Shown piece after piece: positions 6,001-62,475 of a stretch of DNA of 64,000 nt; positions within the stretch are counted from its first letter, which is position 1, and each line of letters starts with the position of its first letter. This DNA comes from a virus (lineage: Duplodnaviria; Caudoviricetes), in IMG/VR virus record IMGVR_UViG_3300021387_000688. One strand, 5' to 3'. A program made the position numbers and the translations under genes. The notes under the pieces were generated by a model. That model was not told where the DNA came from, ran no database searches, and saw only the letters and a program-made list of their open reading frames with translations.

Positions 6001-8071
6001 TTACTATGCACAGAAGACTGAAGGTGAAGAAAAAACTTGGATATCTGTAGGAAGTAAAATACAAGGATTGTTCGAACCTAGACAAATCGTCAATAGAGAA
6101 AGAGATGAAAATGATACCATCCAGATAGAAAATGTAAGCGTTGCCAAGAGTGTTTATCCTAAACCTTCAGATATTGATGATGAATTGTTAGGTAACTTCT
6201 ATGACTTAGATGCAGAAGGAAATATTAAAACTGTAAAGAATACTTATGGTAGAGAAATCTTAAGGCTTGCTGATTCTACAGAACAGTGGGGTAACTTAAT
6301 TAAGAAAGTTCCTGGACTTGAAGGAAAAGATAAAATATTAGGTGACTTAACAAGTATGGTAACTTACGAAACATTGGAAGGTGGTTCTATAAGTATAACC
6401 CCTACTGTATATCCTGAAGAAATAGATCCTTCGAAGGGAGTTGCTTGGCCAGGAGAGTTAATTGGAAAGGGCTATGATTATGTAAGTAAAATAGGTCAAC
6501 CTATTCCAAAGCTGGTAAAGGTACCTAAAAACAGTGTACAGAACCTTCCTTATACTCAAGCAGAATTTATGATAAATGGAGATTCTGACATTTATGTAGG
6601 AGAAGATTATTTGAAATTGACCGCCACATTCAATAAGCCAAATGCATTATCATCTGAAAAATTCGATGATAATAAAATGAATAATACCCAAGTAACTTCT
6701 ACAGAATTCTATAAAGATTTTACAGAGAATCATCCTTACACTGCTGCTAGGGATGGTTTAGTTACTAGACAGTTGAAAATTAAAGTAGTTAATCCTACTA
6801 CTCAATTGCCTAAATTGGTAGATATTTCAAATTATAGAGTTACAAATAGCAATATATCTAAAGTCTTTAGTATACTTGGTACAGAATCTACAGAAATTGT
6901 AATACCTGCAAACGGTTACGGACAATCTGTAAGAGGTGTTTATACAAAACCTTCTGAATGCAAGTTTGAAGATGATTTATTCTATATGAAAGGAGAAGTA
7001 CAAAACGAGTACGGCGAAACTATTTACTGGGTAGACGGTAGTGATTTGACAGTGAAAGAAAATGGATTACCTGCAAACTATGAACCTATGAGAAGAATGG
7101 TTTACAGATCTTTCAAACAGGCCGATGCACATTTACTTCCAAAGTTGGCTACTAAAGAAAAGACTTCTTATGAAAACCCAGCTGTTGTAATTGACTTGAC
7201 CCAAGAAAAACTTAGAGTAGATAATGCAAATACAATTGTATTTAAGTCTGAAGATGTTTATCCAGATTTCTTTATTAGTAAAGAACGTTCGGCTTCTGCC
7301 AATAAACAAGCTGCTTACAACCAATTCTATTCTAACGTAGAGTTCTCTTGTAGGGTTATGTACACCAAGTTAGGATTTGATGAATCTTCAAGACAAGTTG
7401 ATTTAATTGCAACAGCGGGATTAGATCGTCAGTATGCTACAAGATTGTATACAGATAAAAAGCATATTCCTACATTTACAAAGTATTCTATAGGTGGAGG
7501 AAAGTTTGCAAGAACTGGCGGTTCTTTCGTAGCAGATAATAAATTGTATAGAGTTAGCGAAGATGGTAGAAACCCAATGTACTTAAATGAAGAAGGTGAG
7601 TTAACTCAAACTCCTAATAGTTTAGGACCTGTACATGCAATTGACTATGAATACTTATTACAATTGTATAAGGGATTGGGAAACATCTTTACTTCTATTA
7701 AAGTAACAAACGATGTAGGTTCAAGTGCTTATGACTTGAGTGGTTTGAATATTTCTAACAACTGTTTGTTACCAGATTGGAAAACAAAGACTGTAGGATT
7801 TACTAACAACTCTAACTACAAGATCTTCGTAATGATGAAAGATTTGAATGAAGAAGATTTCGCTTACCAGACTGTAGAAAATGAGGCCGGAAGTAAATCT
7901 TTGTTGAAGATTACTACTCCAACTACAATCTCTGTAGAATATCCTAACACCTTTAAGGAATACAACTTAGCTTACATTAAAGATAAACAAGGAAATATTG
8001 TAGCTAAAGCTTACTTTGATAAGCATAAGGTTAAGGAAGATAGTTTGTTAGTATTCTCTAAATTAAGTTAA
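2..8071 (+). CDS. Giant putative virion structural protein (>2680 aa, 5' end outside the window)
   Basis: The reading frame is already open from position 2 (GAA ATC CCG...), upstream of the listed start at 74. Acidic, low-complexity-free composition typical of large phage virion proteins; no catalytic motif recognised. Confidence 0.6.
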   Translation, partial: EIPEDELWDNENKKVDPSKYTNAQLIDMYNDMSRQGMYEKSQTIGHSNVSITDTMYSINTIELPIESLVFVKDFIKNNTRTERVKKYSPTLNVDYFYKEYIVNDQIEWEGELVEAHALVDISTSGSDVKMYSLKTYKGSIFGDDVVTVEEDISRLVEERGEILACIIDNYEGKHFVKVYETFTRNGDCYVKFYKMGEPDLKMSTFENKDIYLILDLDEELSDAKVEEFSKERRKTKKVNIYRNDQFFLISRSWEPITQESLNYMLDNTELDAPENYARTSILSTKTTVPRVLTELEDTVVFDGSADDAKIGLVKDLIAENKSLYLDSSIRILQHVPLSVSTTQWSEDYGVLSFLYESGDLPAQISFYDVDISLYDPLQENVNFLKRDDLQDLGMDEAQKVYNRRYVVWGSVVWDANTDRSVEVLRTIWASYFSNFEIYSTEDIIPSELVAQSLGVKNTYSQNILNYDYAENEANPTEHWNVSVVSNLRSNSVTSGVIANCAAIRFQEENLTGVNKDANGNILFENVFGRTKALDVGNMFYRTGVDDPSAGLSFGEEPITFHNLITEDCDLTISYDNDFKDIVFMKYNPENATVTLHVKKGIEEKNSKFTEGSCSYNNLDKLIWTDVTSTGLFSGVLAKVDVLHAKIDIVKYLECILKNYSVLHQQELKGEVGTSYTNVDENNNVKMTDILNYTYTYATIGSVIPVFARMVGSELVITGFLLDKKGENKYHLHVFQFGAPFIAPVAKTVINTDKYNRFPVLEKDFEKVVKEISVYPIYIPTSTYDCNLNFKTTGGDIIPNAITKDSQVEVLDETLDTEDGDEGKIDRSRLQISYLDTDGKKKNIFLNNNLKRFKEYKNCTVSLSTRADEDNENYLDCIMTFDGEDLDLSAEGLISLYDMKVPDFRTRYDRALDNEIKVVERNTILDDLHITAFKPNDLDPSKTDLILMNPLDASNFNVTNAIEQLTPIDENVHTQKVVGGKGYIADLWEDAGYPKIGYSYYKRAFIANGVISPNDITRVTLSDESLIEDGIDLTKHITADDPVTLILHNPPSYYIGAGVNLELDTGTYSTADGPYKILHEETKYEGEDKGSSINYILAGKHSIVVVKVNFENTKVQVTSVFELPEDVSNINYVNGIFTLEKNGETYELRSTGNGNLPITTDMFYAGQVNNDTATFDGYVAVKTVYDGENTQDVRINKVSQLVNAHAGYEDLGPVSIKAITTVGRYTIKFDDKDRVYGEARYGGEPLRYVTDPAALEIFDASGFKGQILTEGSEDDPGSFSVESIEGLTDLDKLKDWIVKTLRNQFGGDPTLSDPQFEGSMEKSQDYYYTTAQGSGFAASKSEWVKDELMRTLLNITANDVYNKPEGTKRWRKVISKDTIYVPTLEERDVEVVYDDNLTKWQKVYVINSIGNTLLKDCTDPETLQAFVKAILPTNFITRKRPIISTEASLDGTKVLWDQDACALTVFDKDGNISNRIAYQYLGLNYPVDPDKSGKNATEDWLIPNRIYLKADGTTFNKAFNMETSDGEGTSEYDQMYKEFGKYEVKDKVNGTITIVDGALYMPTLLANVNEDDIEIVTPDDMKFQQLVAISKDVEKWNAYVDYMKKLSWLAPDYSNYMVFNSPNAIINFQKLDNRLEGLKNAGKITEAQYNNASNVIKNINTTAKDDDCATGIIKGSPYLSFDNYKSNLYLTSIGVGVDSGTNKPLYFKSLITNSGILMSSGKEAYIYGTMKWPTFTEIRNLCEDSIKAKYSKMEGTEKDNAVNEDLNKLADSLNARYAKFETTSEDGMDQYKVGENEDVAPADTKFMIRVNLDTGAITPMGGMDAGKTASFNNLYATTIVNNKIMAITDVGIGELGSVGGSEFNPSVAGGEQINAFTGELISALKDAKAFNGKISSEGSKLTLGSSGTTVHNQPAVFTKVGVVGATSFTLEDDVIMADEGDNTPINVTMVVMDTTKDNFQYGYGDVEGLDQLNAAGSIFQVNSSEYADFATYEIANGDLISYYAQKTEGEEKTWISVGSKIQGLFEPRQIVNRERDENDTIQIENVSVAKSVYPKPSDIDDELLGNFYDLDAEGNIKTVKNTYGREILRLADSTEQWGNLIKKVPGLEGKDKILGDLTSMVTYETLEGGSISITPTVYPEEIDPSKGVAWPGELIGKGYDYVSKIGQPIPKLVKVPKNSVQNLPYTQAEFMINGDSDIYVGEDYLKLTATFNKPNALSSEKFDDNKMNNTQVTSTEFYKDFTENHPYTAARDGLVTRQLKIKVVNPTTQLPKLVDISNYRVTNSNISKVFSILGTESTEIVIPANGYGQSVRGVYTKPSECKFEDDLFYMKGEVQNEYGETIYWVDGSDLTVKENGLPANYEPMRRMVYRSFKQADAHLLPKLATKEKTSYENPAVVIDLTQEKLRVDNANTIVFKSEDVYPDFFISKERSASANKQAAYNQFYSNVEFSCRVMYTKLGFDESSRQVDLIATAGLDRQYATRLYTDKKHIPTFTKYSIGGGKFARTGGSFVADNKLYRVSEDGRNPMYLNEEGELTQTPNSLGPVHAIDYEYLLQLYKGLGNIFTSIKVTNDVGSSAYDLSGLNISNNCLLPDWKTKTVGFTNNSNYKIFVMMKDLNEEDFAYQTVENEAGSKSLLKITTPTTISVEYPNTFKEYNLAYIKDKQGNIVAKAYFDKHKVKEDSLLVFSKLS

Positions 8072-17241: not shown

Positions 17242-18093
17242 CTATTTTAACAAGGCAAGTACGTTCTGAGAAGAATTGTTTGCCTGAGCCAACATAGCTA
17301 CAGATGCCTGTTGCAATACTTGGTTCTTAGTATATTCTGTAATAGACTGAGCCATATCAGTATCGCGAATACGAGATTCTGCAGATTGTGTATTTTCGGC
17401 CGCAATGTTGATACCCTTCTGGGCCATCTCCATACGGTTCTGGTAAGCACCAAGATCTGCTCTTTGCTTTGTTACATTTTTCAAAGCTTCATCTACCGTT
17501 GCAAGGGTTGTACTTGCTTCATCTGGACTTGCGATAGAAATTACATTAGATTCCTCTCCCTGCTGCCCCTTCAATCCAAGCGCAGTAGCTGTCATTGTTC
17601 CAATGTAAGCTCTAATATTCTGATCCATATTAGCTCCAATCTGGAACTGCATAACCTGATCTGACTCCCTAGAGAATCTACCTGTCAAAAGGTTCATTCC
17701 ATTAAATTGTGCAGAAGATGCAATTCTATCTACTTCAGATACTAACTGGCTTACTTCAACTGCAATCTGCATGCGGTCTTCATCTGAATAAACTCCATTT
17801 GAAGCCTGTACTGCCAATTCTCTAATGCGCTGAAGTACATCTGTAGTTTCTGCAAGATAACCTTCTGCTACCTGAACAAATGAAACTGCATCACCGATGT
17901 TTCTTGAAGCCTGATTAAGACCCCTAATCTGAGATCTCATTTTCTCACTTACTGCCAAGCCTGAAGCATCGTTACCTGCTTTGTTAATTCTTTCTCCTGA
18001 AGAAAGAGCTTCTACTGATTTCTGAAGGTTCTGTGTGTTAAGACCTTCCATTCTGCTTGCGAACAAGCTACTCATGTTGTGATTAATGATCAT
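17242..18093 (-). CDS. flaB: Flagellin, spirochete FlaB type
   Basis: MIINHNMS start, [63 protein letters not shown]; 283 aa with no variable outer domain. Confidence 0.97.
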
Positions 18094-28217: not shown

Positions 28218-28295
28218 AAATTAAAAGCCATTTAGGATACTCCTTCTATATTGTTCAACAAGATGCAGCACAAGCTGCGAAAAGGAGAAAAATAA

Positions 28296-30422
28296 ATGGC
28301 TTTTAGTTTGAACAAAAAAGCGAACCAAGCCGTTTCATCAGAATCAGTATGGAGAGTAGACCATATTGTTGGAAACGAGTTTGTAACCGTCGTTCTCGAT
28401 TTACCTATTCGAGAAATGTCTAGTCTTGATAAAGAAATCCTAAAATATCTAGAAAGTATTTTATCTAAAGCAGGAATTGCTTCTTATGTAATTACTTCTG
28501 CGCTTTCTAAATATCCTAACGAAAAAGAGCTTAAAAAAGGTCTTACAGATTATTACATCAATCACAATTCGGGTTGGTTTGAACAGATTGTTAAACCTGC
28601 AAGAGAAAAAGGAATGACGGCAGATGTTATTGTAGCATTCGGTCCAGCCTTATATCAAATTACAAAAACAGCAACAGACTTCACAGTAGATGATTTAATC
28701 TATCCTGCATTTGAAAATTATGTTTATGTAGGACACGGATATGTAGGAGATTATGATGCATTTATATTCCCGCAGTATCCAATTCAGGAAGTTTTCGTTC
28801 CAGGACTTCAAGATGGAGTTGAACAAGTAGAACTTGGTTGTTGGAAAATGAATTTCATGGTTTCTGTATTTAAGAAAATTGCAGCTCGTAAATATCAGTT
28901 ACCGGACGACATGGGTCCAGTTGAATTAAGAGAGATTGGGGAGAATTACGATACAGATAAAGAAGGTGCAGTAAAAGAAACTGAAGAGTTTTTGAAAACA
29001 CATTTCAATGAAGATGTATGCGCATTCGACTTGGAAACATCTGGTTTCAATGCATGGAAATGTAAGATTAGATGTATTACACTTTCATTTGATGGTAACG
29101 TAGGTTATTATTTGGAATGGAAGATTTTCAAAGAAAATCCTTATTTAATTGATTTACTTTCTGAAATGATGTTAACTGCTAAGCATCGTGTAACAGTTAA
29201 TGGAAAGTTCGATATTAAGTTCCTTTGGGTTAATGGCTTAAGTTTGGATGTAAATGTAAACGAAGATGCAATGACATTGAGCCATGTATTATGTTCTGGA
29301 AGACATAAAGGTTTGAAAACGAATGCATTCTTCTGGACCCCATATGGTGGTTACGATCACAAACTTGATGAGTATCGTGATAACTTGAAAAAGAAAGGAA
29401 TTAAGGACCCATCATTCTATGATATTCCAAAAATAATTCTTAGACCATATGCGACTATGGATGCTATCATAACAGTTCGTATTTGGAGAGCAGGTCTTAA
29501 ACGTATTCAGAAATTCGATTTTGAATATCCTACAGAATATCCAATCGAGTATACAGGCGGACATGCATATGGTGCTTATGAATGGTACCAGAACGTTATG
29601 CAGATTTATCCAATCATTTGTAGAATGGAATATGATGGCATGTATGTAGATGAAGAAATCATCGAAATGCATAGAAACATTTTCAGAAGAAAGATTGATG
29701 AAGCTCGTAAAGAGTTGAGTAAGATTTTTGGAACACCTTATGATTTCAAATATGGTTCAGCTGCAGCTTTAGGAAGACTTTTGGAAGAAAAAGGTTGGCC
29801 ATGTCATGGTAGAGCCAAAGATGGTTCATATGAAACATCGGATGATTGTTTCGTAGAATGGACAAGAGATGGTATGCCAGGAGTTAAATGGCTTAAGAAG
29901 TTCCGTGTAGCAAATACATGTTTGAGATCTTATCTTGGAGTAACTGAAAAGACAGTAGATCAGAAAAGAGGAACAATTAAAGTTGAACAAACTGGTTGGC
30001 CTCAGTATTGGGTAAAACATCCAGATGGAAGTACTCGTATTCATTGTAACTTTACAGTATGTGGAACAGAAACTTTCCGTATGATTTCTCGTGAACCAAA
30101 CTTGCAGAATGTGCCAACTCATTCACAGGAAGGTTCTATTACAAAGATGTCATTTACAGTTCCTCCTGCAGCCGCTGCAACTATTACAGATGAAAATGGA
30201 AAGAAGTGGTGGATTACAGAGTTAGGAATTATTAATACAGAACGTGGTTATGTAGCAATGAAGGCTTTGACAGAAGACGATACTATTGTAGATATCGGAG
30301 AAGAAACTACTTTGGAATTTGATGAATGGATGGCTAAAGGAATTAAGCCAATTGGAATGGAAACAATGTTAGGTAAACACAATCAAATTCTTGAAGGAAA
30401 GTTTGTATTACAGGAGGAATAA
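28296..30422 (+). CDS. polA: Family A DNA polymerase, fragment 1 (UDG-like N-domain, 3'-5' exonuclease, thumb) plus a non-polymerase tail
   Basis: ExoI FDLETSG, ExoII NGKFD, ExoIII YATMD, RIH.NF...TETFR..SREPNLQNVP; polymerase homology ends at MSFTVPP just before motif A. Confidence 0.92.
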   Translation: MAFSLNKKANQAVSSESVWRVDHIVGNEFVTVVLDLPIREMSSLDKEILKYLESILSKAGIASYVITSALSKYPNEKELKKGLTDYYINHNSGWFEQIVKPAREKGMTADVIVAFGPALYQITKTATDFTVDDLIYPAFENYVYVGHGYVGDYDAFIFPQYPIQEVFVPGLQDGVEQVELGCWKMNFMVSVFKKIAARKYQLPDDMGPVELREIGENYDTDKEGAVKETEEFLKTHFNEDVCAFDLETSGFNAWKCKIRCITLSFDGNVGYYLEWKIFKENPYLIDLLSEMMLTAKHRVTVNGKFDIKFLWVNGLSLDVNVNEDAMTLSHVLCSGRHKGLKTNAFFWTPYGGYDHKLDEYRDNLKKKGIKDPSFYDIPKIILRPYATMDAIITVRIWRAGLKRIQKFDFEYPTEYPIEYTGGHAYGAYEWYQNVMQIYPIICRMEYDGMYVDEEIIEMHRNIFRRKIDEARKELSKIFGTPYDFKYGSAAALGRLLEEKGWPCHGRAKDGSYETSDDCFVEWTRDGMPGVKWLKKFRVANTCLRSYLGVTEKTVDQKRGTIKVEQTGWPQYWVKHPDGSTRIHCNFTVCGTETFRMISREPNLQNVPTHSQEGSITKMSFTVPPAAAATITDENGKKWWITELGIINTERGYVAMKALTEDDTIVDIGEETTLEFDEWMAKGIKPIGMETMLGKHNQILEGKFVLQEE

Positions 30423-30425
30423 AAG

Positions 30426-31388
30426 ATGTTAAAGATTACTAAAAGATCTGCTACAATAGATGATTTTTTGAAAATGAAAAAGAAAGAGCCATTTGCAACA
30501 TGGCGACAGACATCTAAGCTTGAAAACTTCGGTTTGATGTTCGGTGCACAGTATTCAACATTCGCCCACATTCTTCAGACAGCAGAACCACCTTTTACAA
30601 TTGAAGATTGTAAAAACTATATCAAACTTGCACATGCAGAAGATGTTTATAATGAAATGTTGATGAAGGCTCAGAAAGGAAGACACCGTCTTTATGAAAT
30701 GAGACCTAATGTAGAATGTTGGTATTATGCAACAGCAAAAGTAATGCGTGAAGCATTCTTGAATGGATATAGTGGATTGAAAGAACGTATTGAACGTGAA
30801 CATAAGTTTGCTATTAAACATTACTATACAAGAAACTGGTATGGTTCTGTAAGATGGTACCCTGAGTTAGCTTATATGAATATTGATCCAATTGAGAAAA
30901 CATTGAAGGGTGCAGATAAAAAGTATTTTGCATATATCTTCTCTCATTTAATGAACAACGCCGCAAACGGTCCTGTACAGAGTGGAGAGACGGTATTTAT
31001 TTACAATGGTTGGATTCATGCAAATAAAAAGATGAAGGAATGGGATTTAAGATCTCAGATTTGTAATACAATTCATGACTCTTTGGATGCATATTTGTGG
31101 AAGCCAGAAAAAGAATTAATGAAGGCTTTGATTAATGCAAGTGTACATGATAAGATTCGTTATCCTCATGAAAATGTATTCCACTTCATGGAACCTGAAA
31201 TCTCTGACATTAGAGATTATGAACATATTACAGGTTATAAAGAAGGGGAGTTTACAGGAGATGAAAAGATCTTAGGACACTTCTATAAACATGGTGAAGA
31301 AGAGAAAGCAGCCCCAATTGCAGATGCTCTTAAAGCTTATAATGAAACTTGGGGAACCAATTGGGAATGGACATTGCCATTAATTTAA
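30426..31388 (+). CDS. polA: Family A DNA polymerase, C-terminal fragment (motifs B and C)
   Basis: RQTSKLENFGLMFG (motif B), AANGPVQS, TIHDSL (motif C); own GGAGG RBS. Confidence 0.92.
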   Translation: MLKITKRSATIDDFLKMKKKEPFATWRQTSKLENFGLMFGAQYSTFAHILQTAEPPFTIEDCKNYIKLAHAEDVYNEMLMKAQKGRHRLYEMRPNVECWYYATAKVMREAFLNGYSGLKERIEREHKFAIKHYYTRNWYGSVRWYPELAYMNIDPIEKTLKGADKKYFAYIFSHLMNNAANGPVQSGETVFIYNGWIHANKKMKEWDLRSQICNTIHDSLDAYLWKPEKELMKALINASVHDKIRYPHENVFHFMEPEISDIRDYEHITGYKEGEFTGDEKILGHFYKHGEEEKAAPIADALKAYNETWGTNWEWTLPLI

Positions 31389-31398
31389 GGAGAATAAT

Positions 31399-31785
31399 AT
31401 GAGTTGTAAAATTGAAATAGATCCATTTAATAAAAAAGCAGGTAAGTTATGTTATTTGTTAATGACTCAGGATGCTGCGTCATTGGAGGCTCGTGTATGC
31501 ACAAGTGATACTGTTCTTAATAAGAATGGTATTGATAAAGTTTTGTTCTCGGTATATGATCCAGTACATGGAAATAACGACTTACATAGTACTACAAGTT
31601 TCGCTACATTCGGTTCATCTGTAAACTTACAGATTAATGAAATAGTAGACGATAACGGAAAAACATGGTTGTGTTTGGATGACCAGTCTATTGTAATTAA
31701 AAGAGATGGCCAGCAGATCACGGTTTTAGGAAAAGAATTAAAAGAAACAGATGAAATTGTTGGTTATGTAGAGGATGTAGCTTAA
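31399..31785 (+). CDS. polA: Family A DNA polymerase, middle fragment (motif A) plus a non-polymerase tail
   Basis: LLMTQDAASLEARV (motif A, cf. DYSQIELRV) and DLHSTTS (cf. DLH..TA); own AAGGAG RBS. Confidence 0.88.
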   Translation: MSCKIEIDPFNKKAGKLCYLLMTQDAASLEARVCTSDTVLNKNGIDKVLFSVYDPVHGNNDLHSTTSFATFGSSVNLQINEIVDDNGKTWLCLDDQSIVIKRDGQQITVLGKELKETDEIVGYVEDVA

Positions 31786-32558: not shown

Positions 32559-35500
32559 ATGCAAAAGAAACAAAACGATTCTTACACAGGAGATGCAATC
32601 ACAAATAACATCAAATATGCAGATAATGAATGGCAGGCTCATGGTACAGTAGACCGTGGTTCTATGTTCTTAACTGAGCCTCTTTTAGGTTTGTTATATG
32701 CAGGTAAGAAATATGATAAAGATTTAGGGGATTATAAAGATTATGTACCTCGTGGTAGTATGTCTAGTACTGCAGGTTTGGATGCAAATGCAACTGCATT
32801 AGCAAGAGCAAAATTTCAGATTGAACCAGCCCGTTTAAGTCATGACTTGCTATTATTAGATGCAACCTATTATGTATCTACTGCTAACAGTTCATTAGTA
32901 AACATTTTCGATGTCGATACATATATCAAAAAAGCTATTTCTATAGCTAACCCTATTTACGACGATCACGTAAATTACAAAGTTATACACTTAATTGATC
33001 CAGACAATGTAGATGAAAACCTTACTGTAAAGGATTTCTTAAAACAAGTGCATCCAAAAGCCGCTTTAGGTAAAGATATAAATGACGAGGATTTAGGTGT
33101 AGTATTTGAAAGATATTCTGTAAAAAGGACCGATAACTCTCAATTTACGTTAAACCCAAATACAAAAATTAAAGAGTTTTTAAGCCATAAGGATGAAGAT
33201 ACTCTTGAAGGAATTGCAGCAAAAGTATTCTATGAAGACTTTACATTACATGAACACGATCCTCTTTCTATTAGAAATCCTTTTGATGTAAGATCTGAAG
33301 AAAGGCGTCAATATTATCTTTCAAGATTCTTAGCCAATACAGTATCTCATTCTTTAGGAGTATCTGAAAACGGTTTAGGATATTATGAAATCTTAAATAA
33401 CATGATTGAAGATGCTACCTTCCATTCATATGGTACTGCAGAAGATACATGGCCAAAAAGGGTTTTCGGAGACGAAGCTCTTCAATGGAACCTAGAAAAT
33501 GCATATTCTTGGACATCTAATCTAGTAGGGGAGGATGATGAACATTTACCAATAGAAGATACTACAGAAACCCAAGATAATAAATACATAGAAGTGTTTA
33601 GAAGATTCTTAGGGGATAAATCTTCCAGAGCAAACTATAAAGAGTATTTGAGAAGAATGAATACTGCTATTTCTTCTATCTCAAAATACTGTATCGATGT
33701 ATATGTAGACTGGGATACAAGTGATCCTGGATCTATCAAAGACTCTTGGGGTATTCACCTTTTGAATGAAGAGTCTACTACAAACTTGTTCCAGGATAAC
33801 AGCCACAACTATAGGCTTTTCAATACTGCAGCTTTAGGTTATAAATTGGCAGATGCTCTTATTTCTTTAAGAACATTCTTAGGTGGTTTCTATCACATGT
33901 TCTCTGCTTCAGGAGGAGATTCTGAACAAGCTACATATGTTATCCCTTATGATACCCCTATTTATGAAAGATCTGTTAACACTACTCCTATAGGAGCATT
34001 ATGTGAAGGTAACGTAGATTGGAATGGTTCAGGAGAAAATCCATTTTATAGACAAAATACTTATGTTACAATAGATACATTAAACAACTTGTATAGATTG
34101 GGACATGGCATTAAAGGAGACATCGTCGCCAGTGATGATTATCCAAGTTCTTATGCATTTGAAGCTGAAATTAAAGAATGGTTGTCAAACGAAACTCTTA
34201 TGATTAAAGCACCTGTATATGGTGACTATGTAGAAGAGTTGAACTTCATGCAGGATTTGAACCCAGATTCTGATGTTAACTTCGCCAACTTAAGGATTAA
34301 GAAAACTTCTATTCCTTATAAAAATTCTCAGGATTCTAAATATGAAGAACCCTTCGTAATGAGAACTAATCCTCTTGTCAACCGGGAAAAGGAAAACAAA
34401 AAAGGATATGGAGTACATGCATCTGAAGCTTTGGCAGCTGTAGGTGATAACCCAGATGGATTAAATTGGGGAGAAAATGAACCCAAAACTTCTCATGTTA
34501 TCCCTCCTTTCTTATATGACTATGATAAGAGAAATGAAGAAGATTTCTTAGAGGCAGATGAAAGGCTTTTAAGTAAAGAAGGGGCTAAACAAAGGGTTGC
34601 AAACCCAGCAGGTAATTCTGTAATAGAATCTAGAATAGAATCTCCTACAATTGATGAATTGTGGACATTCTTGAAATACTTAACAGAATCTGACGGTAAT
34701 GTAAATGATTCTAATAGATTACCTTCTTTCTATGGTATCGATAAAAAGTTTATCAAAAACAGCTTAATAACAAAAGAGGATTTTGCAAATACAGTAAACC
34801 CAATGGCCGCTGAAGATAACAATCGTAAGATTATTGATATCTTAAACTGGCACATTATTCCAGATACTAGCAAACCTCCTTACTATAGTTCTGAAGCCGA
34901 GAATGAAATACGTTTAGGTGGATATGAAGTTACAGAGTATATCGATAAGATTTACGACTATGAAATAAATCCATTCTCAAGAAGGGTTGTTAAGAAGGAC
35001 GGGGATAAGTATGAATATGATACAGAGGCCCAGTTCGATCAAGATGTTAACGGAAAGTATTCTAACAGTCATGATGAACCTACAGGTTATCTTGAAAAGT
35101 TGTACAACGAAACAATTGCAAACTTTGCTTTGTATAATGCATTAGAGGGAGATGAATCTTTATCAAATGCCGCAGAAATTGTTAGCATATTTGAAGATGA
35201 AAACTATGATAATTACTTTAATGCAGAAGCAGATAAACTTATCAAGACCCCTACTTCAGAAAAGAAGCTAGCTTATGCACAAGCCCAATGGTCTAATCAA
35301 AGAGTTAAAGCTTTCACTTTATTGAGTAGGATTTTGAATTATCATAAAGCTGATGGGGAAAATGATTTAGTAGATGGTAAAGATACTTCTTATCACAACC
35401 ACTATAAACATTATATGAACCATCCAAAAAACTTGAAATCTATCGAAAGGGATTTGGAAGCTATTCGTCAAAACTTGCAGAGCTTAGCTGAATTTGCTTT

Positions 35501-36008
35501 AGCTACCTTCACTTCTATGGGTTATGCAGATAGATCTACAAACCGTGGCACATTACATCAATTGCATAGAAACAGTTTTGATTTCAATTCTACTTTGATA
35601 GGTACAGATAAGTTTAATGGACCTATTAGCTTAGCAGATTTGAACAATACAATTGCAGATCCTGAACCAAATACTCTTTACAACTTTGCAGTTACCGTTT
35701 ACAAAGGAGAAGATTTAGCAAACTCTTTAAACAACTTAGTTGAACCAAAGGTAGATGGCGACTTGTTAGTATCTGCAATGGATAGAAAAGTTGTATTTGA
35801 AGATGGTGAGTTTGCAGAAAGATATAAAGAAGATGTTTATGATCATAATATCATAGATTTAAGAGGACCTGTAGTTAATACAAGGGCTCTTAAAGAAAGG
35901 TATAGTCCTAATGAGACTTTACTAAGTGAAGTATACTTGGCCGCAGACGGTACATGGAGAAGTATCCACGAACACCCAGTTGCACCTATTTTGGATTGCG
36001 AATTTTAA
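32559..36008 (+). CDS. Large putative virion protein
   Basis: 1149-aa acidic ORF between baseplate-like and tube-like genes. Confidence 0.6.
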   Translation: MQKKQNDSYTGDAITNNIKYADNEWQAHGTVDRGSMFLTEPLLGLLYAGKKYDKDLGDYKDYVPRGSMSSTAGLDANATALARAKFQIEPARLSHDLLLLDATYYVSTANSSLVNIFDVDTYIKKAISIANPIYDDHVNYKVIHLIDPDNVDENLTVKDFLKQVHPKAALGKDINDEDLGVVFERYSVKRTDNSQFTLNPNTKIKEFLSHKDEDTLEGIAAKVFYEDFTLHEHDPLSIRNPFDVRSEERRQYYLSRFLANTVSHSLGVSENGLGYYEILNNMIEDATFHSYGTAEDTWPKRVFGDEALQWNLENAYSWTSNLVGEDDEHLPIEDTTETQDNKYIEVFRRFLGDKSSRANYKEYLRRMNTAISSISKYCIDVYVDWDTSDPGSIKDSWGIHLLNEESTTNLFQDNSHNYRLFNTAALGYKLADALISLRTFLGGFYHMFSASGGDSEQATYVIPYDTPIYERSVNTTPIGALCEGNVDWNGSGENPFYRQNTYVTIDTLNNLYRLGHGIKGDIVASDDYPSSYAFEAEIKEWLSNETLMIKAPVYGDYVEELNFMQDLNPDSDVNFANLRIKKTSIPYKNSQDSKYEEPFVMRTNPLVNREKENKKGYGVHASEALAAVGDNPDGLNWGENEPKTSHVIPPFLYDYDKRNEEDFLEADERLLSKEGAKQRVANPAGNSVIESRIESPTIDELWTFLKYLTESDGNVNDSNRLPSFYGIDKKFIKNSLITKEDFANTVNPMAAEDNNRKIIDILNWHIIPDTSKPPYYSSEAENEIRLGGYEVTEYIDKIYDYEINPFSRRVVKKDGDKYEYDTEAQFDQDVNGKYSNSHDEPTGYLEKLYNETIANFALYNALEGDESLSNAAEIVSIFEDENYDNYFNAEADKLIKTPTSEKKLAYAQAQWSNQRVKAFTLLSRILNYHKADGENDLVDGKDTSYHNHYKHYMNHPKNLKSIERDLEAIRQNLQSLAEFALATFTSMGYADRSTNRGTLHQLHRNSFDFNSTLIGTDKFNGPISLADLNNTIADPEPNTLYNFAVTVYKGEDLANSLNNLVEPKVDGDLLVSAMDRKVVFEDGEFAERYKEDVYDHNIIDLRGPVVNTRALKERYSPNETLLSEVYLAADGTWRSIHEHPVAPILDCEF

Positions 36009-49334: not shown

Positions 49335-50372
49335 TTAAGCTGAAACTTCTTCAATAATCTGAAGGCATTCAGTATATTCTTCGTCTGTAAGTTGCAATCT
49401 ATCTTTATAAGCTGTTAAAATATCGGCTGGATTTTGAGAAGTATATTTCTTATCAATTGAAAATTCTTTAACTGAACCTGAAACTATTTCTTCATCTTCT
49501 TCTCTTAAAACTTCTGTTTTGTAAACATGTAAGCCTAACAAACGTGCCTGAATGTAAACGTCTTTTCCATCGATAATAGGAGAATGAATAATCTTATAGA
49601 AAACGTTTTCGCTAGTTTCAAGATTTTTCAAATCTGTTAAAGATTGAATAGTATATTTCTTAAGTGTTAAGAAACTTGGAATAGTTATTTCTGCTTGTTT
49701 AATATTACCAGTGTCCATATCTTTTGCTAACAATCTAATAACAGAATGGTCATAGTCTTTATTTTCTGCTACAGAGTTTGGTAAGATAGATCCTAAGTAT
49801 TGAGGGTTAGTATCGTGAGAATGAATATGCCCGCAGAAATAAGCTTTTGTATTAATAGAAGAAATATCAATATGAGGAGAACCTGCAACTGACTCTAATT
49901 CCCAATGTGCAACTAAAGCGTCATAAACTTTATCTTTAGTATTTTCTTCTATATACTTTTGTACTTTTGAATGAGAGCTACCATATACCCAAGGTAAGCA
50001 GCAAAGCTTAAAACCATTCTTAGTTTCATAGTCGCAGAATTTGTTAATTACAATAACCCCTAATTTCTCTAAGAATACTTGAGAGTTTTCTACTTTGTAT
50101 TTATTCAAACCGTAATCGTGATTGCCTAGAATAGCATAGATAGTAGAAGCTTTTTTATGAAGCATTTCAAATAATTCAAGAGCCAATGCACTTACAGTTG
50201 GTAGCATATAAATTCTATGAAGTACATCTCCGGCTAATACTATTTCAGTATCTTCTTTTTTAGAATCAGGTAATGTTTGATCGATCCAATTGATAAAATC
50301 TCTTAAACCTTTTTTATAAAAGGCTCTGTTACGTAAATGAGCGTCCCCTATACCTACAAGTATCTTTTTCAA
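49335..50372 (-). CDS. Mre11/SbcD/gp47-like recombination nuclease
   Basis: Metallophosphoesterase motifs GDAH, AGDVLH, GNHD, GHIH, YLGS. Confidence 0.9.
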   Translation of the reverse strand: MKKILVGIGDAHLRNRAFYKKGLRDFINWIDQTLPDSKKEDTEIVLAGDVLHRIYMLPTVSALALELFEMLHKKASTIYAILGNHDYGLNKYKVENSQVFLEKLGVIVINKFCDYETKNGFKLCCLPWVYGSSHSKVQKYIEENTKDKVYDALVAHWELESVAGSPHIDISSINTKAYFCGHIHSHDTNPQYLGSILPNSVAENKDYDHSVIRLLAKDMDTGNIKQAEITIPSFLTLKKYTIQSLTDLKNLETSENVFYKIIHSPIIDGKDVYIQARLLGLHVYKTEVLREEDEEIVSGSVKEFSIDKKYTSQNPADILTAYKDRLQLTDEEYTECLQIIEEVSA

Positions 50373-50373
50373 T

Positions 50374-51333
50374 TTAATTCATCCTTGTCTTACTTAATGA
50401 GAATTTTTTAGCTGGCTGAGGCACGGTTTGCATGTCTAACTTAACTTTAAATTTCTCTATTGGAATATCGCAATTGCGTGGCAATTTACTTTCAATTACG
50501 TCAAAGTTTGCTTCACTAAAATCCAACAACCTTTCATAAGATTTTGAAGTATTAGACAATAATAAGAGTTCTTTAAGTCTTGCAAAGCTGCCTTGACCGT
50601 AGAAGAACAATCTTTTAGATTCAAACAAATCCCAATTTTCTTCTCCCATTCTCTTAAGAAGTTCTTTCATTTCATTTGAGGCCTGGGTAATCACTTTAGT
50701 CTTTTCGTGTTGGAAAGCGCCCACTACGTTATCACTTTCGTCCCCGTACATAACTTTCCAGAAGGTAACAGAAGTAATATTAGGCTTAAATCCATATTTC
50801 TTTTTGAAGTTCTTTTCAGTAAACAAATTATCTTTCTTAATAGAAAGGCCTTGATTTAACATTTCTACTCTATCTTCTTCAAGATATCTACAGAAGTCTT
50901 CGTCAGAAGTTACCATTAAACATTTTCCAGTTTCCGTTAATTTTTCTACAAAGTCGTCTGCTTCATATTCACAATCATGGTATACAGAAACTCTTTTAGT
51001 ACCTTCTAGAATATAATGGGTGTATAATTTTTCAAGGGTATTTATTCTTAATTTAACAATAGGGCTATTCTTGTCGCGATTTGATTTATAACCTTCTTTG
51101 ATTTTTTGGCGTTCACTAATAGAACCATCTGAAAGTAAAGGATCAAACAATAAACAAACTTCTCCTAAAGTACTTTGTACAAACTTGTCTATTACAGATT
51201 TGTAATAATTGAATAAAAGATTATTTTTGATTAATGTTTTACAAGTAGCTTCTGAAGCATCTTTTACATAAAAAGCTGCCACTCTATAAAAAACATTAGA
51301 TGTGTCAATAATTATTTTATCGTAATTTAACAT
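50374..51333 (-). CDS. 5'-3' exonuclease/flap endonuclease (T4 RNase H-like)
   Basis: IIDTSN..YR, YKSNR, EADD, TSDEDF, GDESDNV.G. Confidence 0.9.
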   Translation of the reverse strand: MLNYDKIIIDTSNVFYRVAAFYVKDASEATCKTLIKNNLLFNYYKSVIDKFVQSTLGEVCLLFDPLLSDGSISERQKIKEGYKSNRDKNSPIVKLRINTLEKLYTHYILEGTKRVSVYHDCEYEADDFVEKLTETGKCLMVTSDEDFCRYLEEDRVEMLNQGLSIKKDNLFTEKNFKKKYGFKPNITSVTFWKVMYGDESDNVVGAFQHEKTKVITQASNEMKELLKRMGEENWDLFESKRLFFYGQGSFARLKELLLLSNTSKSYERLLDFSEANFDVIESKLPRNCDIPIEKFKVKLDMQTVPQPAKKFSLSKTRMN

Positions 51334-60774: not shown

Positions 60775-62475
60775 TTATTTGAACAATTTTTCAAACTGTT
60801 CCATCTGAGTTTTGCTATAAATTCTTTCAAGTGGCATATCGATTTTACGACACCACTTAGATACGATAGCTGGATCGATATAAGCACCTTTTGAAGTAGA
60901 TGCTGTAAAGTTCTGAGTCTTTTCTTTCTGAGAAAGATTCATTTTTGCAATATCGTACTTCTGCTTTGTATTTTCATTCTGTTCCTGAAGTTTCTTAACC
61001 TTATCTTTCCAACCTTCTTTCTTTGCAGCTTTCAAAGCTTTAATCTTAGCTTCGCGTTTTGCAATTGTTTCTTCAACTTTTGCTTCACGTTCTTTAAGAC
61101 TTTCTTCCTTCTCGGCAAACTTTGCTTTACGCTTTTCTTCTGCAACTTTGTTAACACCGCGCTGATGATTCAGTCTCTTTGCAACTTCCATATTTGCTTC
61201 TTCAAATGCAAGTTTCTTAAGAGCAATTGGAGAATCCTTAGTTACATGGAACTTCTTAACAGCTTCTTCCAATGCATTTGTCATTGTATAAGCGGCTACT
61301 GCAGTACGAGCAAGTTTAGGAGAGAAGATTCCGTCAAGCTCAGGTACAATTGCACCTATATAAGCCTTAATATCATTTTTGTCAGTTTTGAGCTGTCCAA
61401 ATTCTTTCCAATGCTCTTCAATTTTAGCAGCAAATTCTGTTTCGATTTCAGATACGTCGTGAACCGAATCCTTTCCAAGGAAGTCAAATTTGATTTTGTT
61501 ACCAGAACGTTTTACATCCTTTCCCCATACAAGTGAAAGAAGTCCTTTTGTTCCATTTGTAGTTGCTTTCTTTTCTCCGATACGGATACCTTTTTCAAAA
61601 AGAAGGAATACAGCAATTACAGTTCCTAAATCCTTTGCTTTCTTAGAATTGAAATCGTTCTTAACAGTTTCAAGAATCTTTCCGTAAGATTCTCCAAGTT
61701 CTGCACCAGCATCGTATTTTTTCATCTGTCCTTCAGTCTTTACAGAAGACTTTGCACTAAACATAATCTTCTTACGAGTTGAAGAATAAACTTTAATCAT
61801 TCCACCTTGAGCGTTTGGTACACCAACGACGCTCGGATAATCTGCACAGTGATGAGATTCTGGACGCCATTCATTATGCCATTTTGATTTTTTAGTTTTT
61901 GGATCAACGTAATTAATTACTTCATCCCCGCTGATCAATACTGGATGCTTTTCTGAATTTGTATTCAATACAACATCTTCTGCGGTTACTGCCATTTTCC
62001 AATAACCTGCATAAGGGCAACCTGGGCGACCTGCGTAAATTCCTTCAGGCTCCAATACCCAAGACTGTAAAGGCTCTTTCTCCCCATCTACTATTGCAAA
62101 GCCATATTTTTCTTTACGAAGCTTGTTTGCTTCTTTAGTTTTTTCTTTTCCTTCTTTATCAGCGTCTTTTGCAGCCTTTACTTCTGCATACCATGCACGC
62201 CATTTTTTGATTTCTGGATCTTCGTTTACAAATGCTGGAAGATTAAGATGTCTAGATTTTGTCAACCAATCAGGTCCACCGGCAGCTTCGATACATTCGA
62301 AAACATGTTTAATCCAATTTTCGTCTTGGAAACAAGGAAGTTCTGGATTCCTTCTACAGAAGTCTCCGAAAATTCTATTATAAAGAAGAGAGCCATCAGC
62401 GAAAGGAGGAACAGGTACGAGACCTGGTACTTCCACTGCTTCAAGTTCCAAAGATTTCATAGGTTCAAGTTTCAT
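60775..62475 (-). CDS. DNA topoisomerase IB, long eukaryote/archaeal type
   Basis: Catalytic pentad contexts GIRIG, FDFLGKD, K.ART, LNHQR and TSKGAYIDP; core motif EPEGIYAGR; coiled-coil linker; IYSKTQ end. Confidence 0.93.
   Translation of the reverse strand: MKLEPMKSLELEAVEVPGLVPVPPFADGSLLYNRIFGDFCRRNPELPCFQDENWIKHVFECIEAAGGPDWLTKSRHLNLPAFVNEDPEIKKWRAWYAEVKAAKDADKEGKEKTKEANKLRKEKYGFAIVDGEKEPLQSWVLEPEGIYAGRPGCPYAGYWKMAVTAEDVVLNTNSEKHPVLISGDEVINYVDPKTKKSKWHNEWRPESHHCADYPSVVGVPNAQGGMIKVYSSTRKKIMFSAKSSVKTEGQMKKYDAGAELGESYGKILETVKNDFNSKKAKDLGTVIAVFLLFEKGIRIGEKKATTNGTKGLLSLVWGKDVKRSGNKIKFDFLGKDSVHDVSEIETEFAAKIEEHWKEFGQLKTDKNDIKAYIGAIVPELDGIFSPKLARTAVAAYTMTNALEEAVKKFHVTKDSPIALKKLAFEEANMEVAKRLNHQRGVNKVAEEKRKAKFAEKEESLKEREAKVEETIAKREAKIKALKAAKKEGWKDKVKKLQEQNENTKQKYDIAKMNLSQKEKTQNFTASTSKGAYIDPAIVSKWCRKIDMPLERIYSKTQMEQFEKLFK

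What the first reader, a model, noticed from the sequence alone, without database searches (positions are those of the whole stretch)
28296..31785. Family A DNA polymerase encoded as three genes in scrambled order (1-3-2)
Seen: ORF1 (28296-30422) holds the exonuclease and thumb and loses polymerase homology right after PNLQNVP...MSFTVPP. ORF2 (30426-31388) starts about 25 aa before motif B and has motif C. ORF3 (31399-31785) holds the missing middle piece (motif A DAASLEARV to DLHSTTS). Each has its own RBS, and only 3 and 10 nt separate them. Known: in family A polymerases the order is A, B, C, and the motif A and motif C aspartates form one active site. Inference: the active site is built from separate polypeptides as a heterotrimer. 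The inverted order rules out frameshifting, readthrough or cis-splicing. All catalytic motifs are intact, which argues against a pseudogene.
Basis: partly seen in the sequence, partly recalled or inferred. Interest (0 to 1): 0.92.

Follow-up and report, generated by a model that had tools for sequence, protein, structure and literature searches.

The report
Three-gene, out-of-order phage DNA polymerase
A large phage of rumen Treponema encodes its family A DNA polymerase as three adjacent genes whose order (first, last, middle piece) does not match the order of the protein, and all three pieces are conserved and under strong purifying selection, so the enzyme is most likely put together from three separate chains.

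Summary
ORF1 (28296-30422) carries the exonuclease, the thumb and the first palm strand. ORF2 (30426-31388) carries motifs B and C. ORF3 (31399-31785) carries motif A. Each has its own RBS, with gaps of 3 and 10 nt.

On a one-gene relative (Bacillus phage Nachito polymerase) the pieces map in the order ORF1, ORF3, ORF2. The arrangement is not a misassembly. It recurs in at least 10 assemblies from several studies and in a lineage about 25% diverged.

Population variants show strong purifying selection. ORF2 has 43 synonymous and 0 non-synonymous changes in one variant.

Relatives show how the order arose:
- Most have ORF1 and ORF3 fused (about 843 aa), with the ORF2 gene far away.
- Others have a DUF7487 homing endonuclease gene between ORF1 and ORF3.
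- One has ORF3 and ORF2 fused.

In the window's clade, the gene for the C-terminal subunit sits at that endonuclease-prone break.

Both break points lie inside small inserted modules that weakly but consistently resemble inteins. These modules lack every splicing residue, so they probably act as non-covalent docking modules. A complex model supports assembly (0.79, best control 0.52).

I rate it a new variant of a known kind (split or "fractured" phage polymerase genes). Other first-stage notes of this scan flagged the same stretch.

The parts
28296..30422 (+). ORF1, 708 aa: N-terminal region, 3'-5' exonuclease, thumb and first palm strand (through PNLQNVP...FTVPP), then an 84-aa tail
   Evidence: PF00476 profile positions 5-149. 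Exo motif F-D245-L-E247-T is invariant.
30168..30419 (+). ORF1 tail (aa 625-708): N-terminal part of insertion module 1. It is an internal in-frame insertion in the fused 843-aa relatives.
   Evidence: AF2 pLDDT 79. The nearest folds are inteins, but the scores are weak. No splicing residues.
30412..30417 (+). AGGAGG ribosome-binding site of ORF2, inside the last codons of ORF1
30426..31388 (+). ORF2, 320 aa: about 24-aa head (C-terminal part of module 2), then fingers O-helix (motif B R27/K31/F35), rest of fingers and palm motif C (H217-D218-S219)
   Evidence: PF00476 profile positions 235-358. 100% protein identity across 10 population variants despite up to 43 synonymous changes.
31387..31392 (+). 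AAGGAG ribosome-binding site of ORF3, overlapping the ORF2 stop codon
31399..31785 (+). ORF3, 128 aa: 16-aa head (C-terminal part of module 1), palm strand and motif A (D25...E30, R32), helices to D61-L-H-S-T-T, then a 57-aa tail (N-terminal part of module 2)
   Evidence: The best PDB sequence hit of the tail is the Aes123 PolB1 split intein (E 0.054).
28282..28287 (+). AAGGAG ribosome-binding site of ORF1

Best explanation
The three genes encode the subunits of one working family A replicative DNA polymerase. The subunits assemble without covalent joining.

ORF1 gives the exonuclease, the thumb and the first palm strand. ORF3 gives the motif A aspartate and the first fingers helices. ORF2 gives the O-helix (motif B) and the motif C aspartate. 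The active site is therefore shared between ORF3 and ORF2.

The two chain breaks lie inside two related small inserted modules. One sits in the palm hairpin before motif A. The other sits in the fingers loop before motif B. Each upstream piece ends in a beta-rich tail, and each downstream piece begins with a short head that completes the module by strand complementation. The modules are probably decayed inteins that can no longer splice and now serve as docking modules.

The odd gene order is historical:
- The split before motif B is old and widespread.
- In the ancestor of this clade, the separate gene for the C-terminal subunit moved into the linker of module 1 of the ORF1+ORF3 gene. Homing endonuclease genes repeatedly invade that spot.
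- The move cut that gene in two and put all three subunits in one tightly spaced, probably translationally coupled operon.

Shown here: gene structure, conservation, purifying selection and the arrangements in relatives. Inferred: physical assembly, activity, intein ancestry and the route of the relocation.
For: Structure and order of the pieces.

Not an artefact: 10 independent loci, and contigs from other studies, RNA libraries included, across both junctions.

Purifying selection, synonymous/non-synonymous changes against the window:
- ORF1: 74/9 (L019).
- ORF2: 23/0 (L019) and 43/0 (L020).
- ORF3: 15/2 and 12/1.

Conservation of the arrangement:
- L010 (ORF1 75% identical) has ORF1 followed directly by ORF2 (84%).
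- L011-L013 keep ORF2 before ORF3, with an endonuclease gene between them.
- In the ORF1 tree the 1-2-3 clade has 100/100 support, and the 1-2-3 state is basal in it.

Natural fusions show what belongs together:
- About 105 of the 120 best ORF1 homologues are 815-856 aa and equal ORF1 + ORF3 in frame. They keep the ORF1 tail and the ORF3 head as an internal module.
- P0169 (443 aa) equals ORF3 + ORF2 in frame.
- P0241 (947 aa) and P0249 (1065 aa) are contiguous.

The break between ORF1 and ORF3 is an endonuclease site. L002, L003 and L025 carry a DUF7487 gene exactly there.

In genomes with the fused form, ORF2 lies elsewhere.

Complex model of ORF1(440-708) + ORF2 + ORF3 with ORF3 as partner:
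- ipSAE 0.79, best control 0.52.
- This mark was reached by 58 of 80 solved complexes and 2 of 110 mismatched pairs.
- The runs share at least 83% of their contacts, and the partner pLDDT is at least 79.
- Tightest contacts: ORF3 18-22 with ORF2 221-226, ORF1 622-630 with ORF3 5-19, and the ORF2 head with ORF3 61-85.

Hint likeness of the modules, all weak but convergent:
- Inteins dominate the top rows of Foldseek (E 0.2-1) and VIA-align (Z 3-4) for the module 1 model, and of the atlas search (TM 0.33-0.46).
- The ORF3 profile's best PDB hit is a phage PolB split intein, E 0.054.
- The atlas model of the ORF3 tail is nearest to intein-bearing fragments of split viral enzymes.
- The two tails align to each other by hhalign, P 1.3e-4 over 40 columns.
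Against: - No experiment shows binding or activity.
- The complex model may pass from likeness to solved family A polymerases.
- Every intein-likeness score is below the usual significance thresholds. Module 1 has no sequence match to any solved intein.
- Motif C is HDS rather than HDE, and motif B has F where Klenow has Y766. HDS is also found in the one-gene Nachito enzyme.
- The whole genome was not available, so a second replicative polymerase elsewhere cannot be excluded. Another first-stage note (e1-5482375, untested) reports a 104-aa PolA O-helix fragment about 47 kb beyond the window.
- The route by which ORF2 moved is inferred from present-day arrangements only.
Confidence: 0.75

Rival explanations
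1. The Hint-like modules are still active split inteins. They ligate ORF1, ORF3 and ORF2 by two orthogonal protein trans-splicing reactions into one contiguous polymerase, which would make gene order irrelevant.
For: The tails and heads sit exactly where split-intein halves would sit. The nearest folds and sequences are inteins. The ORF1-endonuclease-ORF3 arrangement of relatives looks like the 'fractured genes' of Dassa et al. 2009 (PMC2677866).
Against: - No conserved Cys/Ser at the first module residue (A-A/P in most).
- No T-x-x-H block. The aligned position in the ORF3 tail reads L-D-D-Q.
- No terminal His-Asn.
- No conserved Cys/Ser/Thr at the +1 position. Position 11 of the module 1 head varies N/D/S and is followed by K/A. 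The ORF2 head has no Asn at all.
- The modules are about 85-105 aa, shorter than any mini-intein in the fold hits.
- Fused relatives keep them in frame with variable linkers.
Confidence: 0.04
2. The pieces are remnants or repurposed fragments, for example a stand-alone exonuclease. Replication is done by another phage or host polymerase.
For: The genome beyond the window could not be searched.
Against: - Strong purifying selection on all three pieces, the 128-aa ORF3 included.
- All catalytic residues are invariant across 50-75% identical homologues.
- The three genes stay together across a clade with about 25% protein divergence.
- No other DNA polymerase was found among the window's ORFs of 280 aa or more.
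Confidence: 0.04
3. Origin rival. The order arose by an internal rearrangement of a single contiguous polymerase gene, with segments 2 and 3 swapped. It did not arise by moving an already separate C-terminal subunit gene into the ORF1+ORF3 gene.
For: Contiguous relatives exist (P0241, P0249). So does an ORF3+ORF2 fusion in the outgroup lineage (P0169), so the ancestral state of the clade is not settled.
Against: - All sister clades of the window's clade have ORF2 as a separate, distant gene, with ORF1+ORF3 fused or split by an endonuclease.
- N-terminal subunits ending in the same tail are widespread in distant clusters, so the split before motif B predates the clade.
Confidence: 0.12
4. Sub-claim rival. 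The two modules are ordinary lineage-specific beta-rich insertion domains with no intein ancestry. The intein matches reflect only a common small beta fold.
For: All scores are sub-threshold (Foldseek E at least 0.2, Z at most 4, TM under 0.5, HMM E 0.054). Module 1 gives no sequence hit to solved inteins. Pfam finds no Hint family.
Against: Five partly independent searches, using different methods on two different modules, all put inteins or intein-bearing split phage enzymes first. The association with homing endonuclease genes is what intein sites show.
Confidence: 0.3
5. Assembly artefact or chimeric contig.
For: None found.
Against: The same order appears in 10 loci from different samples, assemblers and studies. 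One 41.5-kb contig spans the whole stretch, and separate contigs bridge each junction.
Confidence: 0.01

Closest known systems
[quoted passage not shown] 2009, PMC2677866). Also the PolB of jumbo phage MIJ3 (PMC6892783).
   Same: The break lies inside an intein-like module. The upstream piece ends in the N-part and the downstream piece starts with the C-part. Relatives (L002, L003, L025) have an endonuclease gene exactly between the two pieces. Dassa's model predicts later uncoupling of the pieces.
   Different: The modules here have none of the splicing residues, so the pieces are not expected to be ligated. There are two such breaks in one enzyme. In the window the space between the halves holds the gene for another subunit of the same enzyme, not an endonuclease.
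Genes split by a free-standing homing endonuclease whose products reassemble non-covalently: Aeromonas phage Aeh1 NrdA/mobE, and gp43 PolB of some T4-like phages (as cited in PMC2677866).
   Same: An essential phage replication enzyme is cut into separately translated chains at an endonuclease insertion site and presumably still works.
   Different: Those are two pieces in the normal order. Here there are three pieces, the order is 1-3-2, and the catalytic aspartates lie on different chains.
Two-gene family A polymerases of other phages, for example the MEP401-type OM43 phages (PMC10580990), and the split, distantly encoded Pol III alpha of jumbo phages (Iyer et al. 2021, PMC7824862).
   Same: A phage polymerase encoded in pieces, sometimes at distant loci. 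The 843 + 320 aa relatives of this locus are of that kind.
   Different: I found no report of a three-gene family A polymerase or of an out-of-order arrangement. The search was limited to five full-text queries.
Naturally split inteins of cyanobacterial DnaE and Nanoarchaeum PolB (cited in PMC2677866).
   Same: A polymerase made from separately encoded pieces that find each other through intein halves. Gene position in the genome does not matter.
   Different: Those splice into one chain. This one most likely stays as three chains.
Scrambled DNA polymerase alpha gene of stichotrich ciliates (from my own knowledge, not checked here).
   Same: Polymerase gene segments are in non-canonical order in the genome.
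   Different: Ciliates unscramble the DNA before expression. Here each segment is an independent gene with its own start, stop and RBS.

Membership tests
Family A DNA polymerase (Pfam PF00476 with PF01612 exonuclease) | Significant match to the family profile | tested here: met
   ORF1 scores 44.8 bits and ORF2 34.4 bits, both over the 34.3 cut-off. The ORF2 profile hits Bacillus Pol I structures at E 0.002. ORF3 alone gives no hit. Its place is shown by natural fusions and by the Nachito mapping.
Family A DNA polymerase (Pfam PF00476 with PF01612 exonuclease) | Motif A (D..[SQ][LI]E.R) with the catalytic Asp | tested here: met
   ORF3 D25-A-A-S-L-E-A-R32 is invariant in 25 sequences.
Family A DNA polymerase (Pfam PF00476 with PF01612 exonuclease) | Motif B O-helix (R...K...F...Y-G) | tested here: met
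   ORF2 R27, K31, N34, F35, F39 and G40 are invariant. Phe stands in place of the Klenow Y766 equivalent.
Family A DNA polymerase (Pfam PF00476 with PF01612 exonuclease) | Motif C (H-D-E) with the second catalytic Asp | tested here: met
   ORF2 H217-D218-S219 is invariant. It is HDS rather than HDE, as in the one-gene Nachito polymerase.
Family A DNA polymerase (Pfam PF00476 with PF01612 exonuclease) | Motifs A, B and C in that order on one polypeptide | tested here: not met
   There are three polypeptides. The gene order puts B and C before A.
Family A DNA polymerase (Pfam PF00476 with PF01612 exonuclease) | Polymerase activity | not testable with these tools
   Needs expression and a primer-extension assay.
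Split intein / fractured gene (Dassa et al. 2009) | [quoted passage not shown] | tested here: inconclusive
   Inteins head the Foldseek, VIA-align and atlas lists, but with weak scores. The ORF3 tail matches the Aes123 PolB1 split intein at E 0.054. No Pfam Hint hit.
Split intein / fractured gene (Dassa et al. 2009) | Nucleophile (Cys/Ser) at intein position 1 and the block B T-x-x-H | tested here: not met
   Module 1 starts A-A/P. There is no invariant His or Thr in either tail. The aligned block B position in ORF3 reads L-D-D-Q.
Split intein / fractured gene (Dassa et al. 2009) | Terminal His-Asn followed by Cys/Ser/Thr at +1 | tested here: not met
   The head of ORF3 has N/D/S followed by K/A. 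The head of ORF2 has no Asn.
Split intein / fractured gene (Dassa et al. 2009) | Free-standing homing endonuclease gene between the two halves | tested here: not met
   Absent in the window, where ORF2 occupies the place. Present in relatives L002, L003 and L025 (DUF7487) and in variant L020.
Endonuclease-split, non-covalently reassembled phage enzyme (Aeh1 NrdA type) | Separate chains that associate to give an active enzyme | not testable with these tools
   Only modelled: ipSAE 0.79, best control 0.52.

The most novel reading that the evidence does not exclude
Two related, decayed split inteins have been kept as a pair of non-splicing, mutually specific docking modules. They hold a three-chain replicative polymerase together, and its active site spans two chains. 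Because assembly no longer depends on gene order, the pieces have been split, fused, moved and invaded by homing endonucleases many times within one phage group. The result is a natural series running from one-gene to three-gene, out-of-order enzymes.
Probability: 0.45. Interest if true: 0.8.

Novelty: new variant of a known kind. Interest (0 to 1): 0.68.

Why it matters
Split polymerase genes are known in phages. This case differs in three ways:
- It is a family A polymerase in three chains.
- Its two catalytic aspartates lie on different chains.
- The gene order does not follow the protein order. I could not find such an arrangement described.

The relatives give an unusually complete natural series: contiguous, fused 1+3, fused 3+2, endonuclease-split, three genes together, and three genes apart. 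The series shows how homing endonucleases and intein-like insertions can break an essential enzyme into movable parts without loss of function.

If the tails and heads prove to be specific non-splicing docking pairs derived from inteins, they would be of practical interest as small orthogonal protein-assembly tags. They would also document a fate of inteins, domestication as subunit glue, that has little direct evidence.

Tried and rejected
**Searches that found nothing**
- GenBank phages: no DNA match for the locus and no protein match for ORF3. ORF2 hits only Bacillus phage Nachito at 27% identity. ORF1 hits T5-like Vibrio phages and others at 22-27%.
- IMG/VR scans with ORF1 and with the ORF3 alignment found no relatives.
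- No whole genome is held for the window. Records behind Logan loci could not be searched whole.
- Pfam at E up to 1 gives nothing for ORF3 and no Hint family for ORF1.
- The module 1 profile against PDB sequences gave only chance-level hits.
- Rfam at E up to 0.1 found no intron or other RNA family in 27.5-32.6 kb.
- The promoter scan gave fewer sites than shuffles, and no + strand terminator between the genes.
- Full-text searches for DUF7487 and for three-part polymerases found nothing relevant.

**Steps abandoned**
- MAFFT misaligned the ORF3 tails onto the ORF2 head when I tried to build an alignment for the fused module 2 of P0169.

**Results of limited weight**
- The RNA-library contigs across the junctions do not prove transcription or a single transcript.

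**Ideas rejected**
- Active trans-splicing: the splicing residues are absent.
- Pseudogenes: purifying selection is strong.
- Misassembly: many independent assemblies show the same order.
Full report
**1. What is in the window**

Three + strand ORFs lie head to tail: ORF1 28296-30422 (708 aa), ORF2 30426-31388 (320 aa) and ORF3 31399-31785 (128 aa). Each is preceded by a Shine-Dalgarno-like site (AAGGAG 28282-28287, AGGAGG 30412-30417, AAGGAG 31387-31392). The gaps are 3 and 10 nt. No + strand terminator-like site and no Rfam family (group I or II introns included) lies between them. A single, translationally coupled operon is therefore the simplest reading, but that is an inference.

**2. Which part of the polymerase each ORF holds**

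- Pfam PF00476 (381 positions) matches ORF1 at profile positions 5-149 and ORF2 at 235-358. ORF1 also has a weak 3'-5' exonuclease match. ORF3 has no Pfam hit.
- ORF3 carries D25-A-A-S-L-E-A-R32 (motif A) and D61-L-H-S-T-T. Both are invariant or nearly so in 25 homologues.
- ORF2 carries motif B (R27, K31, N34-F35-G, F39-G40) and motif C as H217-D218-S219, all invariant in 22 homologues.
- On the one-gene, 882-aa polymerase of Bacillus phage Nachito, ORF1 maps to residues 185-590, ORF3 to 615-668 and ORF2 to 683-851. The ORF3 BLAST hit is weak (E 0.41) but lies in the right place. Nachito also has HDS at motif C.

**3. The arrangement is real and kept by selection**

The exact ORF2 protein is encoded on 22 contigs. 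The 10 loci fetched come from JGI, ENA and Logan assemblies of different samples. Nine show ORF1-ORF2-ORF3, and the tenth (L020) has an endonuclease gene added between ORF1 and ORF2.

Runs holding the stretch are ruminant and other animal gut metagenomes from 10 studies. A 41.5-kb contig of another study spans the whole stretch. An 863-nt contig bridges ORF1/ORF2. Short contigs from two metatranscriptome libraries bridge both junctions. Such contigs do not prove transcription.

Against the window, population variants differ mostly by synonymous changes:

| Piece | Synonymous / non-synonymous |
|---|---|
| ORF1 | 74/9 (L019) |
| ORF2 | 23/0 (L019), 43/0 (L020) |
| ORF3 | 15/2 and 12/1 |

All three pieces are therefore under strong purifying selection.

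**4. What relatives look like**

The phage group is known only from metagenomes, with contigs up to about 400 kb. One relative lies in a Treponema sp. MAG, and the window carries a flagellin gene. I found six arrangements.

- **(A) Fused 1+3.** About 105 of the 120 best ORF1 homologues are 815-856 aa and equal ORF1 + ORF3 fused in frame. They keep the ORF1 tail and the ORF3 head as an internal module joined by a variable linker. Their ORF2 homologue is a separate ~320-aa gene elsewhere. Contigs of 137,757 and 46,388 nt appear to hold both genes more than 8 kb apart, judging by equal contig lengths.
- **(B) ORF1 - endonuclease - ORF3.** The intervening gene is a DUF7487 gene of 335-554 aa. It has a zinc-ribbon-like N-terminus and a C-terminal nuclease-like motif. 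I read it as a homing endonuclease from context and from likeness to the free-standing endonuclease genes that split genes in Dassa et al. (L002, L003, L025). In the Treponema MAG, ORF2 is on another contig.
- **(C) ORF1 - ORF2 - ORF3.** This is the window. L010 (ORF1 75%, ORF2 84% identical) also has ORF1 followed directly by ORF2 before the contig ends.
- **(D) Type C with an endonuclease-methylase gene on the minus strand, inserted after the first 37 nt of ORF2 (L020).** A duplicated 5' stub of ORF2 stays next to ORF1. Seventeen of the 45 ORF2 differences, all synonymous, lie in the first 100 nt. This is what co-conversion next to a homing site looks like.
- **(E) Endonuclease(-) - ORF2 - endonuclease(+) - ORF3 at one locus, and ORF1 - endonuclease at another.** Both were found in the same samples (L011-L013; L009, L030-L032).
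- **(F) ORF3 + ORF2 fused in frame.** P0169 is 443 aa, and its tail and head form an internal module. ORF1 is not adjacent. The most divergent ORF1 homologue stands alone.

Further out, a profile of ORF3 finds 83 cluster representatives among 1.84 billion. Many are N-terminal subunits of 685-770 aa that end in the same tail but lack module 1. Two are contiguous polymerases, P0241 (947 aa) with a full module 2 in frame and P0249 (1065 aa) with a short one.

**5. Polarity**

In a maximum-likelihood tree of the ORF1 core, the window, L010's protein and the type E proteins form a clade with 100/100 support. Type C is basal in it and type E is nested. Elsewhere the fused form prevails, and type B splits are nested within fused clades at least three times. 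The root is a midpoint root only.

The simplest history has four steps:
1. The ancestor was a polymerase with an inserted module in the fingers.
2. That module was cut long ago into an N-terminal and a C-terminal subunit.
3. A second, related module sits in the palm hairpin of the Treponema-phage clade, and its linker became a landing site for endonuclease genes.
4. In one lineage the separate ORF2 gene came to lie in that very site.

How ORF2 moved is not known. Repair of an endonuclease cut by illegitimate recombination is a reasonable guess. The guess fits the endonuclease genes that flank ORF2 in types D and E.

**6. The two modules**

The ORF1 tail and the ORF3 tail align to each other by hhalign (probability 54%, P 1.3e-4, 40 columns). 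An AlphaFold2 model of the fused module 1 (131 residues, 22 sequences) has mean pLDDT 79 and is mostly beta. Strands come from both the ORF1 tail and the ORF3 head.

Evidence pointing to inteins:
- Foldseek's best rows are mini-inteins and split inteins (E 0.2-1).
- VIA-align's best nine rows are all inteins (Z 3.0-4.0, 53-75 residues).
- The atlas search returns intein-bearing RNR, NrdD, thioredoxin, ThyX and terminase clusters (TM 0.33-0.46).
- The ORF3 profile's best hit among all PDB sequences is the Aes123 PolB1 split intein (E 0.054). It aligns the tail to the block B to N4 region of that intein.
- The atlas's own model of the ORF3 tail is nearest to fragments of split viral enzymes that carry Intein_splicing or Hint domains (TM by query 0.55-0.66 over about 50 residues).
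- Language-model features of the ORF1 tail point the same way, at lead level only.

Each line is below the usual thresholds, and module 1 has no sequence hit to solved inteins. Together they make intein ancestry likely, at about two in three by my estimate.

Activity as an intein is very unlikely:
- No nucleophile at position 1.
- No T-x-x-H block.
- No terminal His-Asn.
- No conserved +1 nucleophile.
- The modules are only about 85-105 aa long.
- Fused relatives keep them in frame.

**7. Assembly model**

The model used ORF1(440-708), ORF2 and ORF3, each with its alignment, and ORF3 as the scored partner. The results:
- ipSAE was 0.79 (runs 0.76-0.83). The best control scored 0.52, and controls with unrelated partners scored 0.00.
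- This mark was reached by 58 of 80 solved complexes and 2 of 110 mismatched pairs.
- The runs agree in at least 83% of their contacts, and the partner pLDDT is at least 79.

The tightest contacts were:
- the strand before motif A (ORF3 18-22) against the motif C hairpin (ORF2 221-226);
- ORF1 622-630 against the ORF3 head (5-19);
- the ORF2 head against ORF3 61-85.

This is the family A palm and fingers rebuilt from three chains. Because that fold is well represented among solved structures, the pass shows likeness and does not show binding.

**8. Comparison with what is known**

- Two-piece phage polymerases are described: OM43 phages (PMC10580990), the PolB of T4-like phages, and the split Pol III alpha of jumbo phages (PMC7824862).
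- Genes split by free-standing endonucleases are described: Aeh1 NrdA.
- 'Fractured genes', with a split intein flanking an endonuclease gene, are described (Dassa et al. 2009, PMC2677866; MIJ3 PolB, PMC6892783).

Type B relatives here are close to fractured genes, except that the intein-like module has lost its chemistry. The window adds three features that I did not find described in a limited full-text search:
- three chains for a family A enzyme;
- an out-of-order operon;
- the partner subunit gene occupying the endonuclease site.

**9. Verdict**

It is a new variant of a known kind. Interest is 0.68: a specialist would be surprised by the arrangement and by the natural series of forms. 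Split polymerases as such are not new, and gene order does not matter for a non-covalent complex.

Other first-stage notes of this scan flagged the same stretch and the Hint-like tails. I tested the latter and found it partly supported.

Noticed in passing
L020:2975-5000 (variant of window 30422-30426): A 597-aa DUF7487 + N6/N4 DNA methylase gene on the minus strand is inserted after the first 37 nt of ORF2. A duplicated ORF2 5' stub stays next to ORF1, and a fresh RBS and start precede the full ORF2. Seventeen of the 45 ORF2 differences from the window, all synonymous, lie in the first 100 nt, like a co-conversion tract next to a homing site.
   Followed up: partly
L002:8247-9299, L003:3716-5380, L009:8096-9514, L012:4938-5957 and 6942-7964, L025:6955-7962, L030:4127-5677: Pfam DUF7487 proteins (335-597 aa) sit at every boundary of the polymerase pieces: after ORF1, before ORF2 and before ORF3. 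They have a CxxC...CxxC N-terminus, repeated short motifs and a nuclease-like C-terminus. They look like an undescribed family of free-standing homing endonucleases. No paper in the library mentions DUF7487.
   Followed up: partly
window 60775-62472 (-): A 565-aa protein matches all three Pfam domains of eukaryotic-type DNA topoisomerase IB (E 1e-24). This is unusual for a phage of bacteria.
   Followed up: no
window 17242-18090 (-): A full-length flagellin (Flagellin_N E 3e-40, Flagellin_C E 1e-24) lies among phage genes. Together with a relative binned in a Treponema MAG (L025), it points to a spirochaete host. Earlier notes call it FlaB with a FlaA-like neighbour.
   Followed up: partly
window 50374-51330 (-) and 49335-50369 (-): A stand-alone 5'-3' exonuclease (FEN-like, PF02739) lies next to a metallophosphoesterase. 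This fits a polymerase that lacks its own 5'-3' exonuclease domain.
   Followed up: no
window 32559-36008 (+) versus L003:5833-9219 (-) and L025:8444-11830 (-): The ~1130-1150-aa gene next to ORF3 is on the opposite strand in type B relatives. The region just downstream of the polymerase has therefore been inverted between lineages.
   Followed up: no
P0179-P0252; P0241, P0249: A much wider family of phage family A polymerases has an N-terminal subunit of 685-770 aa that ends in the same ~50-aa tail after D-x-H-S-x-T. Two contiguous members keep the module in frame. The split before motif B is thus old and common, and apparently undescribed as a family.
   Followed up: partly
L006:16912-16963: An IS605 OrfB/TnpB (Cas12f-like) gene lies on a related phage contig near the stand-alone ORF2 locus.
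   Followed up: no
I could not reach that sequence, so its relation to this polymerase is open.
   Followed up: no
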